Positions 50,401-56,400 of a stretch of 64,000 nt of DNA are shown here, piece by piece (position 1 is the stretch's first letter; each line of letters begins with the position of its first letter). The position numbers are program-made. The stretch covers positions 43,152,001-43,216,000 of the forward strand of contig NC_083279.1 of the NCBI RefSeq assembly GCF_963506605.1, written 5' to 3'. The stretch comes from Zootoca vivipara (taxonomy: Eukaryota).

Positions 50401-53400
50401 AGTAACAGGAGCAAATGGCATAGAGGTTTTCTGGAGAGTACCACCTGCTATTCTAAATTTGAGAACGGGCCAATATTTCTTTAACCGAAATATGAGCCCC
50501 AAGAGCCTAGAGCAAATTGTTTATGCCAGTCAAGTGTTCTCTAGCTCATCAACACAATATGAAGCACAGTCTTTCAAAGTGACCCCAAGAGAAGAGCAGG
50601 CATTTAACTGGGGAAAGAAGTGACAACATGAGCACTGGGAGAAATGTACCGTGCCAAGTGGTTTAAAGAGTCACAACCTTGTCCTGGGAGAAGGTTAAGA
50701 TCCTTCCTGAAACTCTTCAGTCTAGAGGTTTGAGGGTTTTTTAGAGGTTAGGGCAGGGCACTCTATGCTCATTCCTGAGTCAAGTACTAACCACCTTCCA
50801 GATTCATATAATATGATACACCTCTGTCATTAATGTTTTGGTTTAATGGGGTCTTTTCCTTATCACAGGAGTATTCAGGCAGGAGTATTCAGATCAGTTT
50901 ATCAGGCTTAGGAAAGCCCACTTTTCTGGCCTTAGCAAAGCCTACTCTAACAAAGTTAAGGGTGTCTGATTTAGCCGATTCAATTCCATTGGCTTTGTTA
51001 ACTTGGACTGTAAGGAAACATTCTCTTGCCATTAGCTTTCTGCTATAATCACTAAATTATCAGCTCCACTCATGAAAATGCAGAAGAGCGGACAGTACTT
51101 TGGTAGGCTAGCAGGTACTTTATAGCAAATTAGCACATTTCTCATGTGTGTGAAATTTTAATGAAGTTTTCCTTTCCTTCTTGATTTTCTTAGTAATATA
51201 GGCACCACCTTTTGGTTGCAAGGGTGAGAAATAACAAAATCACTCTACTGCATAACTGCTCTAATCAGCAAACCCCGCACACTAATTATAGAACTTCTGG
51301 AGTACCAAAGTCAGTGTTTAATTATTAAAGGAATTCAATTAAAGGAAGGTATTACTATGTTAACTGCAGCTGTGGTATACATATCTAATCAGTATACAAA
51401 GGTTAGCTTTTATATGTATACAAATGCATATGGGATGGGATCTGCAGTTTGGTAGAAGTATTATTCATGATTAACGAATAATTACTTTGATTTATTTTGG
51501 ATAAAGTATGTTCAGTGACTATCAAGCTTGTTCTCAATCATTGAAAATCTGAAATTGTTCTGTCCAAAGGGACAGGGACAGAACTTCACTAAAAGCTCCT
51601 ATTTTGTGGCAGTAAAACCCTGACAAGTATTGCACAGCTTGGAGGTAGAAACAAATGACCAGGGAACCACAAAGTGGCTCTAAATCAGGGGTGTCAAACT
51701 CAAATTCATCGGGGGCCGCATCAGCAGTTTGGTCACCCTCAAAGGGCCGGTTGTATCTGTAGGACTATGTGTCCACTCTTTATTATCATAAATTATTGTC
51801 ACTGCATTCAATTATTACTGTTTTTTGTAATAATGTAAGTAATAACTAGCTCTGAAAGCAGAAACATAGACAGAATAATGGCAAGTAGATATTCAAATGT
51901 GCAATTATTGTACAATTTATTGAAAAATGATTTTTGGTAACTGCACTGGGTGGTGGAGGCTCGCTAGGGTTTCATGCAGGACCTTTGCAGAGCTACTAGT
52001 ACCTGGAGATGCTGGGGTCCTTCTGCATGCAGGACAGCTGTTCTGCCAGTGAGCCACCACCCTTCACCAAAGGGACTGGCTGAGGTTGACTCACTGGAGC
52101 TGCTCTCCTGGTTCCAGGGTTAAAGGGCCAGAAGTATAAAGCAGCATCCTATGNNNNNNNNNNNNNNNNNNNNNNNNNNNNNNNNNNNNNNNNNNNNNNN
52201 NNNNNNNNNNNNNNNNNNNNNNNNNNNNNNNNNNNNNNNNNNNNNNNNNNNNNNNNNNNNNNNNNNNNNNNNNNNNNNNNNNNNNNNNNNNAGGAAATAA
52301 GGAAGGGAATAAAGAAGGAAAGAAAAAGAAAGAGGGAGAGAAGAGGGAAAGGGAGAAAGAAGGAAGGAAGTAGAGGGAAAGAAAGAATAAGAATGAGGGA
52401 GAGGAAGAAAGATGGGAAGGACGGAAGGAAGAAAGGAAGGAAGGAAGGAAGAAAAGAGGGAGCAGGAGGGAGAGAGGAAGGAAAGAGGTGAGAGAAAGAA
52501 GAGTAGGAAAGAAGGAATAAAGAAGGAATAAGAACGAGAGAGAGGAAGAAAGAAAGGGAAGGGGGGGTTGCCGCCTTGATTCAGGGCCAGAAAAGAGCGC
52601 GAAGGGACCCGACCCCCCCCCCCCCGGCCCCAGCTGTTTGTCGGCGCTTTGTCGGCGCGGCGCTTCAGCAGCAAGGTCCCGCTGCTGGGTCCCGCTGGCT
52701 GGGGCGCTCGGCGGGCCACATGATGAGGTCTGGCGGGCCGGATTTGGCCCCCGGGCCTTGTGTTTGACACCCATGCTCTAAATGGACAGAGACTGAATTG
52801 AAGCCTCTATTGTGAAAAGTCTATATTACTTTCGTTGCTCTGTGTGATTATACTGAACTAACACTGTTCAGTTCTTTGTTGCAGGAACTTATAATTACCT
52901 CTCAGAGTTGATACAGCTACAAGTTTGTAAGAGGAATGGCTTCCGGGTTCAGCGCCAGCGTCGATCGGCGGGGCTTCGTCTCGTCTCCGAGACGGCCCGT
53001 CTCTGCTAGGAGTGGGGAGGGCAGCGAGAGCGACGCTGCGCCCCTTAGAACCTCGGGAAGGGCGTCCCGAGGGCAATTTGCTCGGCACAGACCCAATCCG
53101 GACTCCCCAACTCTTCGGCTAGCTCTAATAAGAGCTCCGGAGCGAGGAGGGTAGAAGTCGCGGGGGCCATTTTGAGCGGCAACGTTATTCTAGCAGGGAG
53201 AAGCTTCAAGCCGAAGGCGGAGAGCGCTGGATTCTTCCGAAAATAAAATGATTGGAAAAGACTGTAAGTAACCTCATGATTTGGATTATTATAAAACAAT
53301 TTGGATCTGGGAGAGAGGGGAGAAAAGAGGAAGCCACCCCCCCCCACGGCAACAAAAGAGACAGTAAATAGAAACCCGAGGCCATAAACAGAAGATTTAC

Positions 53401-56400
53401 AATTCAAAGGATCCCTCAAAGGCATCAAAGAGAATCTCCCCTTTGATGCAGGGTGAAAAGGGGAGAGAGACTGCGGTTTATGACTGCTCTGCAATAAGAG
53501 GTACAGCCTAAGAAAAAAAACCTTTCCACTCGGGAGCCGGCAGCCCAGACAACCCAGTGAGTTGTCAGGATTTATGAGTCAAATTTTACTTCACTTTGTA
53601 TTTCTGGACTTTGTGGAATCTCTTTTTTGGCTTAAGTGTTTGTGAAATGTGAGTTCGAACTTTATTGTTAATAAGACTTGAAGAATGCAGCCAGCTTGTT
53701 AAAATGGAGTCGAAAAATAAACTGTGATCATATTCCACCCCACGTGACAAGTTTTGACCTTGGCAGGACTGAAATATGTCAACAAAAAAGTGTTCCCCTG
53801 AGTTCCAGCGGTCTGTTTTGACCTTAATGTGGGAAACAAGAATAGAGTTATGTCAAGAGGAGACACGACGGCAAGAGTTACAGGAAAAATTCCAGGAGGT
53901 GATGGCGGAATATGATTTTTTAGGAGATGAAGCTTTGGACACTGAAAAAGATGAATGTGAGAATGACAATGATGGGGAAGGAAAAGAAGAAGATGAGGAT
54001 TGTGATGATTCAACACAAAATGAAGCACACCACGAAAAAAATGATGACTCTACTCTACAAAAAGTTGGATGGAGTGCCCTGCTTTTGAGGGGGGCGCGAT
54101 TGGTATCATTGGAACTCCAGAACGCCCACAGGGAAGAAGGAAAAAATATGCAGAGAAGAGAAGAAATTCAGGGGTCCTGTATGGTGGCCTGGATGACAAA
54201 AGACTGTAAACAGGGGGTGGGGTGAAGGGAAAGTGATGTTGTGATTAAGGATGGATTAACAGGTTTATAACTGGTCTGCTGATTTTGGAATTTGCTGGAT
54301 TGGGGGGGGAAGCCGGCAATCGGGGATGTAAGGTTAAATTGAGAATAGTTATAGTTTTAAAAGTGAATGGATTTTGGAAAATGTGAAAATATGGAGGCTT
54401 ATAGAGGGAGAAAAAACAAAAAATTAGGCACGGGAAGAGAAAATGGGAGTTTGATTTCTCAGTGATTTGAATATTAGATGAAAATGTTAACAATTGATTT
54501 ATAAGTTGTATAAGATGCAAAGGTGTATTTTTATAAAGTAAGAAACTGTTGCAGATGATAAAAAAGGGATGAAAACCGGGGAAGGGGGGGGAGGGGAAGC
54601 CCACAAAATATGGTTTTACAACTATGAATGCAAGAAAATTTTTTTGTTTTGTATTGTTTTTTCTTTTTTCTTTTTTCGCTCTTTCTTTTTTTTTCCCCCC
54701 TTTTTTCTATTTCTATTTTTCTCTTTTTTTTTTTTTTGGTATGACAATAGATGGTTGGATGGATGTCCTCCTGCGTACTGCCCTGGTTTGCTGGAGCTCC
54801 CTGGTGGCAGGGGGGGGCTTTGGGGTCAGGGGAGGGGGGGGAGGACAGAAACCCAAGCATAAAATGGACCATCTCTGACTGTTCACATACATGGGATACT
54901 TCTGTGGCAGGGGAGGACCCATGTGGGTGGGTAGGAAGGAGGTGGAAAAGGGGTTTAAGTATGTACCTTTTTTTTTTTTTGCTTTTTTGTATTTTGTAAA
55001 ATTAATAAAAAGTATGTTCAAAAAAAAAAAAGTTTGTAAGAGGAATTAAAGTGAGGAAGGGGTAGGAATATAGACTACTACTCTTCCAGGCAGAACTAGG
55101 AAGAACAATGACTACATGAACAGTGATCCTCCTCAATGGAAAATAAGTGCCATATATTCCTTTAGTAGCTAATTAAAAATAAAACACATCCTAATTATTT
55201 TTCTAGCATTAGTTCTTTACAATAAAACTGATCTTTGAAATTAAGGCAAACATTAGATGGCCTGCTTAAAATGTTAATGAAGAAACTAGCATAAAATGAC
55301 AAGAGTGCTTTGCAGTCTTTTAATGTCTCAACACTTAGAAGATGCTAATTCACTAACACTGTACTAAGGTCTCCTTTTAAGCCCGGGAAAAAATGGAATC
55401 TTTCAAAAAGTTATAGAAAAGGGTATGCGGGGTTATTTTTCTTTTGAATTATTCCTCTCCTCCTTTCTCTTATGAGTATGATGTGGTACCTGATATGTTA
55501 AATTTTGGACACTAACTTCTTTTGTCTCAGTGTATCACCAGTATATATCACTAACCGTATATATTGTTTACAACTTTTTTGGGGTGCAGAAGTATTGCTG
55601 TGACAGCGAGATAACTCCAGACAAACATATGTGAGTTTACAAGGAAAGAAAATATATATTATTACCTTGCTCCAGGCGACTTCAGCATCTAAATTGATAG
55701 GCATGCCTTCTACTGCTGATCTCTTTGTCAGTTCTGAATCTGTCACTGCCAGCCATTCTGTCAGAGCATTCATTTCCTTTCTCAGTTTCCGAGATAATTT
55801 CAAACATTTCTCCAGTTCTTGCTTTTTTTCAGTCACCTGCAGAAGGGGGAGGGGGAATGAAGAGCCAAACCTCTAAATGCTTCACCACCCTAAGTGCTAC
55901 TGAGACGGATGCTCATATTTCTGGCAGTAGTTTTTCTCCTGGTCAAAAGATTCCACCATCAAGTCCCCATGATTGTAGAGGTCATCTACCCTCCGTTTCA
56001 CATCTACAGTTCCCAGAAATGCTAAATCTTTTTATAGCAAACATATGACAAGAATACACCTCAGAACATTAGCCTTTTTCATTACACTGTAGATTACATT
56101 CTTTTGTCAGTACTAGATTGGCATTCTGCTTATAGCAAACCAACTACGTCACACTGAAACAAAAACAGAATGGCTAGATAAATTATAATTTGCAAAGCTA
56201 GCTTCAATAAAAGAAACAAAATGAAGATTAAAAGTATGCTTTAACTCGGTGCTCTTTATGCATATTTAAGTACACTGCAGTCATGTTTTATGTCCTTTTA
56301 ACGCCAACCTTCAGAATTTATTGATTCAATAAAAGTTGTTTTCATCGAGCTCAGCCTGCAACTCCTGTCTCTTGTTCATTTTATTTTTATTTTCTTTAAA

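What the first reader, a model, noticed from the sequence alone, without database searches (positions are those of the whole stretch)
52938..55030. Complete 2.1-kb RT-less retroelement: CpG promoter head, one short ORF, poly(A), 16-bp TSD
Seen: TPRT hallmarks (perfect 16-bp TSD, AATAAA, poly(A)). The 5' end looks intact: GGCTTCCGG (ETS-like), ~290 bp of undecayed CpG-rich DNA and a YY1-type GCCATTTTG at 53166-53174. A 149-aa coiled-coil-like/acidic ORF and a G/T-rich 3' region follow. There is no endonuclease, RT, recognisable L1 ORF1 RRM or tRNA head. Established: L1 machinery mobilises polyadenylated RNAs in trans, and HAL1 elements carry only an ORF1. Inference: a young Pol II-driven non-autonomous L1 parasite with its own small protein, possibly an undescribed lacertid family (a mimic or modulator of the ORF1p coiled coil is one hypothesis). 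This is the best candidate for a new system in the window.
Basis: partly seen in the sequence, partly recalled or inferred. Interest (0 to 1): 0.75.

Follow-up and report, generated by a model that had tools for sequence, protein, structure and literature searches.

The report
Young retrocopy in squamate dystrophin intron
A 2.1-kb polyadenylated RNA copy with no enzymes of its own was recently pasted, probably by LINE-1 machinery, into an intron of a squamate dystrophin gene; it is most likely an ordinary retrocopy of an unidentified host transcript, and whether it belongs to a repeat family could not be tested.

Summary
Window 52938-55029 (+) is a 2,092-nt insert. It is flanked by a perfect 17-nt direct repeat, 15 nt unambiguous. 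It ends in AATAAA, then 10 nt, then A10-12. Its first 300 nt have CpG o/e 1.02, against 0.27 for the window.

It holds no RT, endonuclease, ORF1 domain, tRNA or Rfam family. It lies antisense in the ~7.9-kb intron between two consecutive dystrophin exons.

The 149-aa ORF is longer than chance (6 of 2000 shuffles). It has no relative among 1.84 billion representative proteins. It follows 8 upstream ATGs. Its codon periodicity comes only from the acidic middle. The ETS- and YY1-like motifs give no evidence of a promoter.

Best reading: an L1-type, trans-mobilised processed retrocopy of an unidentified Pol II transcript.

No eukaryotic genome or repeat library was on hand, so copy number is untested. 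No second copy lies in the 64-kb window.

Interest is low to moderate.

The parts
52921..52937 (+). 5' target-site duplication AAGTTTGTAAGAGGAAT
   Evidence: 17 of 17 identical to 55030-55046 (D4). 15 nt are unambiguous, because the first two A could belong to the tail.
52938..55029 (+). Retroposed insert, 2,092 nt, sense on the + strand. Base make-up A 0.30, C 0.16, G 0.28, T 0.26.
   Evidence: Bounded by the TSD. Composition. No other copy in the window. 0 of 40 frames match Pfam.
52938..53237 (+). CpG-island-like head, read as the transcribed part of a CpG-island promoter or first exon. Starts GGCTTCCGG and holds GCCATTTTG at 53166-53174.
   Evidence: G+C 0.63, 30 CpG, o/e 1.02 against 0.27 for the window. 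Motif positions; the motifs are not above chance as evidence.
53238..53775 (+). A-rich leader with 8 upstream ATGs and short uORFs of 1-31 codons. One GTAAGT donor-like site at about 53261-53270.
   Evidence: Expected ATG count from composition is 13.8, observed 8.
53776..54225 (+). 149-codon ORF plus stop. Predicted helix 8-58, acidic disordered middle, weak helix 99-141. No known relatives.
   Evidence: length against chance. (no relatives). (AlphaFold2, mean pLDDT 59). (periodicity only in aa 51-95).
54561..55003 (+). G/T-rich 3' untranslated region. Holds G runs, a polypyrimidine tract of about 100 nt (54640-54738) and a T13 run at 54967-54979.
   Evidence: Composition. Low-complexity arrays.
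55004..55009 (+). AATAAA polyadenylation signal, 10 nt before the tail
   Evidence: Read directly
55020..55031 (+). Poly(A) tail, A10, or A12 counting the two A shared with the TSD
55030..55046 (+). 3' target-site duplication
   Evidence: D4
55663..55839 (-). Context: dystrophin exon upstream (in gene sense) of the host intron. Boundaries are approximate, taken from the alignment.
   Evidence: phmmer against PDB 9c3c_D Dystrophin residues 1558-1616, E 1.6e-25. Squamate dystrophins 88-98% identical.
47555..47737 (-). Context: the next dystrophin exon. Boundaries are approximate.
   Evidence: phmmer against 9c3c_D residues 1616-1676, E 9.3e-18. Weak Spectrin match.

Best explanation
A capped, polyadenylated Pol II transcript of about 2.08 kb was copied into DNA at a staggered chromosomal break. 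The copying was target-primed reverse transcription by a LINE-1-type enzyme supplied in trans. The transcript's first ~300 nt come from a CpG-island promoter or first exon. The copy landed antisense in an intron of the dystrophin orthologue of a squamate.

The insert is most likely a one-off or low-copy processed retrocopy of a host transcript. That transcript would be a long non-coding RNA or a poorly conserved, unannotated small-ORF mRNA. The insert has no replication functions of its own, and it is probably a neutral, recent passenger.

Shown: the insert boundaries, the TSD, the poly(A) signal and tail, the lack of any RT, EN or ORF1 domain, the CpG-rich head, the intronic antisense position, and the absence of relatives of the ORF.

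Inferred: that the enzyme was L1, that the source was a host gene rather than a repeat family, and that the 5' end is the true transcript start.
For: TPRT signature:
- 17-nt perfect TSD.
- AATAAA, 10 nt, then a pure A10-12 tail.
- It is the only such signature among 12 A or T runs of 9 or more in the window.

Trans-mobilisation:
- 0 of 40 frames of 30 aa or more hit any Pfam family at E<=0.01.
- The ORF has no PDB relative better than E 0.37; whether that library holds an L1 ORF1p structure was not checked.

Pol II rather than Pol III:
- 24 T runs of 4 or more lie inside the insert.
- No tRNA or Rfam head.
- The 3' end is a canonical cleavage site.

CpG step: o/e falls from 1.02 to 0.40 at about 53237. 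This is what a first exon inside a CpG island joined to CpG-poor downstream exons would give.

Non-coding or weakly coding look:
- 8 uATGs in an 838-nt leader.
- ORF without any relative among 1,835,955,588 representatives or among the 17 near-length word-sharing candidates.
- Recognition score 1429, below 2300.
- No periodicity outside the acidic tract.

No second copy or fragment in 64 kb.

From papers, passages seen:
- L1 mobilises other RNAs with 3' poly(A) tails, giving processed pseudogenes (PMC5753468).
- 404 retrocopies of protein-coding genes were counted in the green anole, and retrocopy number tracks L1 number across chordates (PMC3136929, Tables 1 and 6).
- L1 is consistently present at low copy number in non-avian reptiles (PMC5203782).
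- Squamate Bov-B and Sauria SINEs end in (CGA)n or (ACCTTT)n, not poly(A) (PMC13295347).
Against: - No parent locus was found, and none could be looked for.
- The ORF is longer than chance (6 of 2000 and 1 of 2000 shuffles; one of two such ORFs in the window). That sits badly with a purely non-coding source.
- If the source is a coding host gene, it should have had annotated relatives. The protein set does hold squamate proteins (Lerista, Phrynosoma, Micrurus, Crotalus, Erythrolamprus). ORFs borne by transposable elements are often masked before annotation (my own knowledge), so the blank fits a repeat family at least as well.
- The target site GCTAC|AAGTTT matches the L1 consensus TT|AAAA at only 2 of 6 positions (consensus as printed in a figure legend of PMC13295347). 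The assignment to L1 therefore rests on the poly(A) tail and the TSD length alone.
- No L1 fragment was recognised in the window. The only RT fragment found (35501-35914, RVT_1) is not attributed to L1.
Confidence: 0.55

Rival explanations
1. The insert is one copy of an undescribed, lineage-restricted, non-autonomous retroelement family. The family is transcribed by Pol II from an internal CpG-rich promoter, mobilised by L1 in trans, and carries its own 149-aa helical and acidic protein.
For: - The ORF length is beyond chance.
- The blank in annotated proteins is expected for a masked repeat ORF.
- The layout recalls an L1 without ORF2: a long leader with a CpG-rich head, a small ORF, then a G-rich and T-rich 3' UTR.
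- The sense strand is purine-rich and C-poor (A 0.30, G 0.28, C 0.16).
- First-exon CpG islands can drive non-autonomous elements. The MAST2 exon 1-SVA subfamily is described in PMC5753468 (passage seen).
- The insertion is young, so something was active recently.
Against: - No second copy or fragment in 64 kb of a repeat-rich region.
- The promoter motifs are at chance level.
- 8 uATGs precede the ORF.
- Periodicity is limited to the acidic tract.
- The recognition score is low.
- There is no relative even among submitter-annotated, poorly masked squamate genomes that the library holds.
- New families of this kind are far rarer than single retrocopies (prior; my own knowledge).
Confidence: 0.25
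2. An internally deleted L1, either a HAL1-like or a one-off deletion derivative. It would consist of the L1 5' UTR, the rapidly evolving coiled-coil start of ORF1 fused out of context, and the L1 3' UTR. It would be mobilised in cis-like fashion by L1 proteins.
For: - The order 5' UTR-like head, helical N-terminal ORF and G-rich 3' region resembles an L1 without its middle.
- ORF1p coiled coils diverge too fast for sequence searches to see across families (my own knowledge). The blanks therefore do not exclude it.
Against: - No ORF1 RRM or CTD, no ORF2 endonuclease, RT or C-terminal remnant in any of 40 frames.
- The ORF has no hit in Pfam at E<=10 other than acidic low-complexity noise.
- The heptad pattern is weak, 9 of 14.
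- No L1 sequence of this genome was on hand for comparison.
Confidence: 0.08
3. A chimeric retrocopy made by template switching during one TPRT event. A 1.8-kb polyadenylated RNA was copied first. The enzyme then jumped to a second, CpG-rich RNA, which gives the 300-nt head.
For: There is an abrupt step in composition at about 53237, and an A-rich AAAATAAAA lies right at the step.
Against: - The head matches no small RNA family. The usual 5' partners of such chimeras are snRNAs (my own knowledge).
- An exon 1 to exon 2 junction explains the step more simply.
Confidence: 0.05
4. Not retroposition. The feature would be a DNA-level duplication, or an assembly join that happens to be flanked by a repeat.
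For: None specific. N runs lie nearby, at 52154-52291 and 57570-57713.
Against: A 17-nt perfect repeat placed exactly after a pure A tail, which itself follows AATAAA by 10 nt, is not what those processes give.
Confidence: 0.02

Closest known systems
L1-mediated processed retrocopies (retropseudogenes) of Pol II transcripts, including those counted in the green anole (PMC3136929)
   Same: TSD of about 15-17 nt. Poly(A) tail right after a canonical AATAAA cleavage site. No introns evident. No RT of its own. The 5' end reaches into CpG-island first-exon sequence.
   Different: No parent gene is identified. The only ORF has no relative in any annotated proteome searched. The target site fits the L1 consensus poorly, 2 of 6 positions.
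HAL1 (half-L1), non-autonomous L1 derivatives that encode only ORF1p (PMC5753468, passage seen)
   Same: RT-less, one ORF, poly(A)-tailed, presumably dependent on L1 ORF2p.
   Different: The ORF shows no ORF1p RRM or CTD and no similarity to any ORF1p. Derivation from L1 and multi-copy status are untested. HAL1 is described in that paper for mammals.
SVA and the MAST2-exon-1 SVA subfamily, composite L1-dependent Pol II retroelements (PMC5753468, passage seen)
   Same: Non-autonomous, Pol II, poly(A)-tailed. A captured CpG-rich first exon at the 5' end is the closest precedent for a 'CpG promoter head'.
   Different: No VNTR, Alu-like or LTR-derived modules. TRF finds only T-rich and G-rich low complexity. 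SVA has no ORF. Family status is unknown here.
Squamate Bov-B LINE and Sauria SINE insertions (PMC13295347, passages seen)
   Same: They also make TSDs of 10 nt or more in squamate genomes. An RT fragment (RVT_1) lies in this window at 35501-35914; that it is Bov-B is my recollection, and no call shows it.
   Different: Those elements end in microsatellite-like tails, (CGA)n or (ACCTTT)n, and share a LINE 3' end. This insert ends in AATAAA plus pure poly(A).

Membership tests
L1-type processed retrocopy (trans TPRT of a polyadenylated RNA) | Flanking target-site duplication of roughly 7-20 nt | tested here: met
   17 of 17 nt, 15 unambiguous
L1-type processed retrocopy (trans TPRT of a polyadenylated RNA) | 3' poly(A) tail at a canonical cleavage site downstream of AATAAA | tested here: met
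   AATAAA at 55004-55009, 10 nt, then A10-12
L1-type processed retrocopy (trans TPRT of a polyadenylated RNA) | No reverse transcriptase or endonuclease of its own | tested here: met
   0 of 40 frames hit Pfam at E<=0.01
L1-type processed retrocopy (trans TPRT of a polyadenylated RNA) | An intron-containing parent locus elsewhere whose spliced exons equal the insert | not testable with these tools
   No eukaryotic genome or transcript collection was on hand. Only the 64-kb window could be searched, and it has no match.
L1-type processed retrocopy (trans TPRT of a polyadenylated RNA) | Insertion at an L1 endonuclease site (TT|AAAA on the TSD strand) | tested here: inconclusive
   The site is AC|AAGT, 2 of 6 positions. 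Consensus as printed in a figure legend of PMC13295347. One site cannot decide.
   0 further copies in the window.
   A CpG-island-like head is present. The YY1-like motif is at chance frequency (4 against 3.45) and lies about 229 nt from the start. There is a single ETS-like heptamer. Promoter activity needs an experiment.
   Only one copy is available. Single-copy indicators are mixed.
HAL1 | Encodes an L1 ORF1p (coiled coil, RRM and CTD) | tested here: not met
   No ORF1 family in Pfam at E<=10. No PDB hit better than E 0.37. 0 hits in 1.84 billion representatives.
HAL1 | 5' and 3' ends derived from an L1 of the same genome | not testable with these tools
   No L1 consensus of this species was on hand and none was recognised in the window
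SINE (Pol III retroposon) | tRNA-, 7SL- or 5S-derived head with an internal Pol III promoter | tested here: not met
   ARAGORN 0 genes. Rfam 0 at gathering score. 24 internal T runs of 4 or more would terminate Pol III (the termination rule is from my own knowledge).
SVA-like composite retroposon | VNTR core and modules taken from other repeats | tested here: not met
   TRF finds only low-complexity T-rich and G-rich arrays inside the insert. No similarity to other repeats of the window.

The most novel reading that the evidence does not exclude
The insert is a young copy of an undescribed, lineage-restricted retroelement of squamates. The element would have no enzymes and would be transcribed by Pol II from a CpG-island head that travels with it. 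It would be copied by L1 in trans and would carry an orphan 149-aa helical and acidic protein that helps or modulates its own mobilisation. That would be a functional analogue of HAL1 or SVA, built from unrelated parts.
Probability: 0.2. Interest if true: 0.6.

Novelty: new member of a known kind. Interest (0 to 1): 0.27.

Why it matters
As a retrocopy, it is one more example of L1-type trans-mobilisation in a squamate. It is a clean, datable insertion in a dystrophin intron. That makes it useful as a presence/absence marker and as evidence that poly(A)-dependent retroposition was recently active in this lineage.

It would matter more if the genome-wide search shows a family. L1-dependent Pol II parasites with their own ORF are, to my knowledge, known mainly from mammals (HAL1, SVA). 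An independent reptile case with an unrelated protein would show how readily such parasites arise. It would also give a new protein to test for an effect on L1 ribonucleoprotein assembly.

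Tried and rejected
- Self-BLASTN of the insert against the window. Apart from itself there were ten short matches of 15-40 nt with E 0.009 or worse.
- Pfam on the 149-aa ORF at E<=10. Only CDC45, RRN3 and DNA_pol_phi appeared, at 6-9 bits against cut-offs of 25-34. This is acidic-tract noise and I rejected it.
- Word-indexed protein search at near length. 17 candidates, none at E<=0.01.
- Exhaustive phmmer over 1,835,955,588 representatives. 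0 hits at E<=0.001.
- ESM Atlas. No usable hit.
- PDB phmmer. Best hit E 0.37, to a phage protein; rejected.
- Rfam scan at E<=1. 6 hits, all far below their gathering scores; the top two (Plasmodium RNase P at 29.4 against 100, HYMAI at 25.6 against 80), whose alignments were shown, lie on low-complexity tracts. Rejected.
- AlphaFold2 without an alignment. Mean pLDDT 59 and pTM 0.29. That is too low for a meaningful fold search, so none was run.
- Three-base periodicity looked like coding evidence for the whole ORF (1 of 1000 shuffles). It dissolved on splitting: aa 1-50 gave 92 of 1000, aa 51-95 gave 0 of 1000, aa 96-149 gave 700 of 1000.
- A high score of one control hit (P0001) proved to come from a duplicated exon in that gene model. 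It has no bearing on the finding.
- Literature searches gave background only. None of the papers listed or read described such an element in squamates. These four searches are the only basis for that statement. They do not cover Repbase or Dfam, or subscription journals.
- Not checked: metagenome contigs and viral contigs (closed). Genome contigs (bacteria and archaea only), phages, plasmids and E. coli collections were not searched because they cannot hold the answer. Supplementary files of PMC13295347 were not opened.

Full report
What is there.

Reading 52700-55300 and the repeat finder (family D4) show one perfect 17-nt direct repeat, AAGTTTGTAAGAGGAAT, at 52921-52937 and at 55030-55046. 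Between the two copies lies a 2,092-nt insert, 52938-55029. The first two A of the downstream copy are continuous with the A run. So 15 nt are unambiguous and the tail is A10 to A12.

The insert ends with AATAAA (55004-55009), ten further bases, and then the pure A run. I scanned all 12 A or T runs of 9 or more in the window for a downstream 12-mer repeated within 8 kb upstream. This was the only hit. The retroposition signature is real and is unique in the window.

Anatomy of the insert.

- Head. The first 300 nt (52938-53237) have G+C 0.63, 30 CpG and CpG o/e 1.02. The next segments have o/e 0.40, 0.43, 0.56 and 0.17, and the whole window has 0.27. The step is abrupt, at about 53237.
- Strand bias. 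The sense strand is purine-rich and C-poor: A 0.30, G 0.28, T 0.26, C 0.16.
- Leader. An 838-nt leader holds 8 ATGs, against 13.8 expected from composition (Poisson P for 8 or fewer is 0.067). Their uORFs are 1-31 codons long.
- ORF. The only + strand ATG ORF over 100 aa is 53776-54225, 149 aa.
- 3' region. It holds G runs, a polypyrimidine tract of about 100 nt (54640-54738) and a T13 run.
- Pol III. The insert contains 24 runs of T4 or more, 11 of them T6 or more. By the known termination rule of Pol III (my own knowledge), this excludes a Pol III transcript.

What it lacks.

- All 40 stop-to-stop frames of 30 aa or more, in six frames, gave 0 Pfam families at E<=0.01. So there is no reverse transcriptase, endonuclease or L1 ORF1 domain.
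- ARAGORN finds no tRNA-like head in 52000-56000.
- Rfam gives nothing at gathering score over the whole window. The E<=1 scan gave 6 matches, all far below their gathering scores; the top two, whose alignments were shown, lie on low-complexity tracts.
- BLASTN of the insert against the window finds no other copy or fragment. The ten other matches are 15-40 nt with E 0.009 or worse.

Surroundings.

Two open stretches on the minus strand are consecutive dystrophin exons. About 55663-55839 aligns to residues 1558-1616 of PDB 9c3c chain D, named Dystrophin (E 1.6e-25). About 47555-47737 aligns to residues 1616-1676 (E 9.3e-18).

The exons were searched one at a time.

The insert therefore lies in the ~7.9-kb intron between them, antisense to the gene.

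In a control search with the first exon, 23 proteins among 90 candidates passed E<=1e-5. The most similar ones named by a source were squamate: Lerista edwardsae 98%, Phrynosoma platyrhinos 95%, snakes 88-90%. The window is thus squamate.

The control also shows that the protein library holds squamate annotations. That gives some weight to the blanks below.

Is the ORF a gene?

For:
- An ORF of 149 aa or more arose in 6 of 2000 dinucleotide shuffles of the insert, and in 1 of 2000 shuffles of a 700-nt local stretch.
- Only one other ATG ORF of that length exists in all six frames of the 64 kb.
- The start has A at position -3.

Against:
- No relative among the 17 near-length word-sharing candidates.
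- 0 hits among 1,835,955,588 representative proteins read exhaustively.
- Nothing in PDB better than E 0.37.
- No usable ESM Atlas hit, and a recognition score of 1429. By the tool's own calibration, 91 of 100 known-family proteins and 9 of 100 shuffled ones reach 2300.
- Eight upstream ATGs.
- The strong 3-base periodicity of the ORF (1 of 1000 shuffles) comes only from the acidic GAN-rich middle. Residues 51-95 gave 0 of 1000, residues 1-50 gave 92 of 1000 and residues 96-149 gave 700 of 1000.
- AlphaFold2 without an alignment gives a long helix at 8-58 with block means 70-85, a disordered acidic linker and a low-confidence helix at 99-141. Mean pLDDT is 59 and pTM 0.29.
- The best heptad register places 9 of 14 a/d positions on hydrophobic residues.

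I rate the ORF as possibly real but unproven. 'Coiled-coil mimic of ORF1p' has no support beyond a predicted helix.

Is the head a promoter?

The CpG-island character is solid. The named motifs are not. GCCATNTTG occurs 4 times in the window against 3.45 expected; 47 of 100 shuffles reach 4. The copy in the insert lies about 229 nt from the start, unlike the start-proximal YY1 site of human L1 (my own knowledge). CTTCCGG is enriched in the window, 7 against 1.66 expected. Four of the other six copies lie in two closely spaced opposite-strand pairs elsewhere, and the insert holds just one.

A CpG-rich 5' end is what any full-length copy of a CpG-island gene transcript would carry. So it does not separate a host retrocopy from an element with an internal promoter.

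Mechanism.

L1 mobilises RNAs with 3' poly(A) tails and so creates processed pseudogenes (PMC5753468, passage seen). A paper I read in passages cites Doucet et al. 2015 for the poly(A) requirement (PMC13295347, reference list). L1 is consistently present at low copy number in non-avian reptiles, with several lineages in the anole (PMC5203782, passages). In the green anole 404 retrocopies of coding genes were counted, and retrocopy number correlates with L1 number across chordates (PMC3136929, passages with Tables 1 and 6).

The other LINE type for which I read squamate data, Bov-B, with its Sauria SINEs, also makes TSDs. It ends in (CGA)n or (ACCTTT)n, not poly(A) (PMC13295347, passages).

So a poly(A)-dependent, L1-type enzyme is the best candidate. 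This is an inference. The target site GCTAC|AAGTTT fits TT|AAAA at only 2 of 6 positions, and no L1 fragment was recognised in the window.

Which kind of source?

Three readings survive.

(a) A one-off or low-copy retrocopy of a host Pol II transcript, either an lncRNA or an unannotated small-ORF mRNA. Retrocopies are common wherever L1 is active, the leader is full of uATGs, the ORF is unsupported by anything but its length, and there is no second copy nearby. I put this at 0.55.

The ORF length and the blank in annotated proteomes fit this at least as well, because repeat ORFs are usually masked before annotation. I put it at 0.25.

(c) An internally deleted L1 whose ORF is the fast-evolving start of ORF1. 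I put it at 0.08.

Template-switch chimera (0.05) and non-retropositional origin (0.02) are minor.

The decisive datum is genome-wide copy number and a comparison with L1 consensus sequences of the species. It could not be obtained.

Comparison with what is known.

The insert works like a processed retrocopy and meets every defining feature of one that I could test: TSD, poly(A) at a canonical site, and no enzymes. The parent locus is untested.

It is not a HAL1, because the defining ORF1p is absent. It is not a SINE. It is not SVA-like in build.

Four literature searches turned up no description of such an element in squamates among the papers listed or read. This is weak evidence, because repeat databases and subscription journals are not covered.

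Verdict.

Novelty: a new member of a known kind. Interest 0.27. The bold reading keeps a probability of about 0.2 and would deserve about 0.6 if true.

Noticed in passing
window 47555-47737 (-) and 55663-55839 (-): Two consecutive exons of a dystrophin orthologue, matching residues 1558-1616 and 1616-1676 of PDB 9c3c_D. The window therefore lies inside this very large gene, on the minus strand. The best named relatives are squamate (Lerista 98%, Phrynosoma 95%).
   Followed up: partly
window 34870-35914 (-): A LINE reverse-transcriptase fragment: RVT_1, E 5.6e-17, at 35501-35914. An adjoining open frame at 34870-35271 looks, from memory only, like the C-terminal end of a Bov-B/RTE element. Other LINE-like open frames without a Pfam hit lie at 4009-4791 (-) and 22628-22975 (-). 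None was recognised as L1.
   Followed up: partly
window 52292-52775: Just upstream of the insertion site there is a GA-rich microsatellite-like array of about 270 nt (52292-52562) that abuts the masked N run 52154-52291. A CpG-rich stretch of about 200 nt follows (52565-52775). Read on the minus strand, this looks like a retroposon with a microsatellite tail. It is outside the TSD and not part of the insert.
   Followed up: no
window 54967-54979 and 55020-55032: A T13 run 40 nt upstream of the poly(A) tail is perfectly complementary to the tail (pair I7). The run at 54723-54738 is complementary too (I6, I8). In the RNA, U tracts could fold back on the tail. No Rfam ENE-type family matched.
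   Followed up: no
window 19611-20138 (-): The only other ATG ORF of 149 aa or more in the window, at 175 aa. It lies at the edge of a G+C-rich stretch: 20001-22000 has G+C 0.50. It has no Pfam family at E<=0.1.
   Followed up: partly
window 15455-15483 and 28487-28514: CTTCCGG occurs as closely spaced opposite-strand pairs at two places. This accounts for most of its excess in the window, 7 found against 1.66 expected. They may be two copies of one repeat.
   Followed up: no
window 41606-41733, 52154-52291, 57570-57713: Three N runs of 128, 138 and 144 bases. They were left as they are.
   Followed up: no
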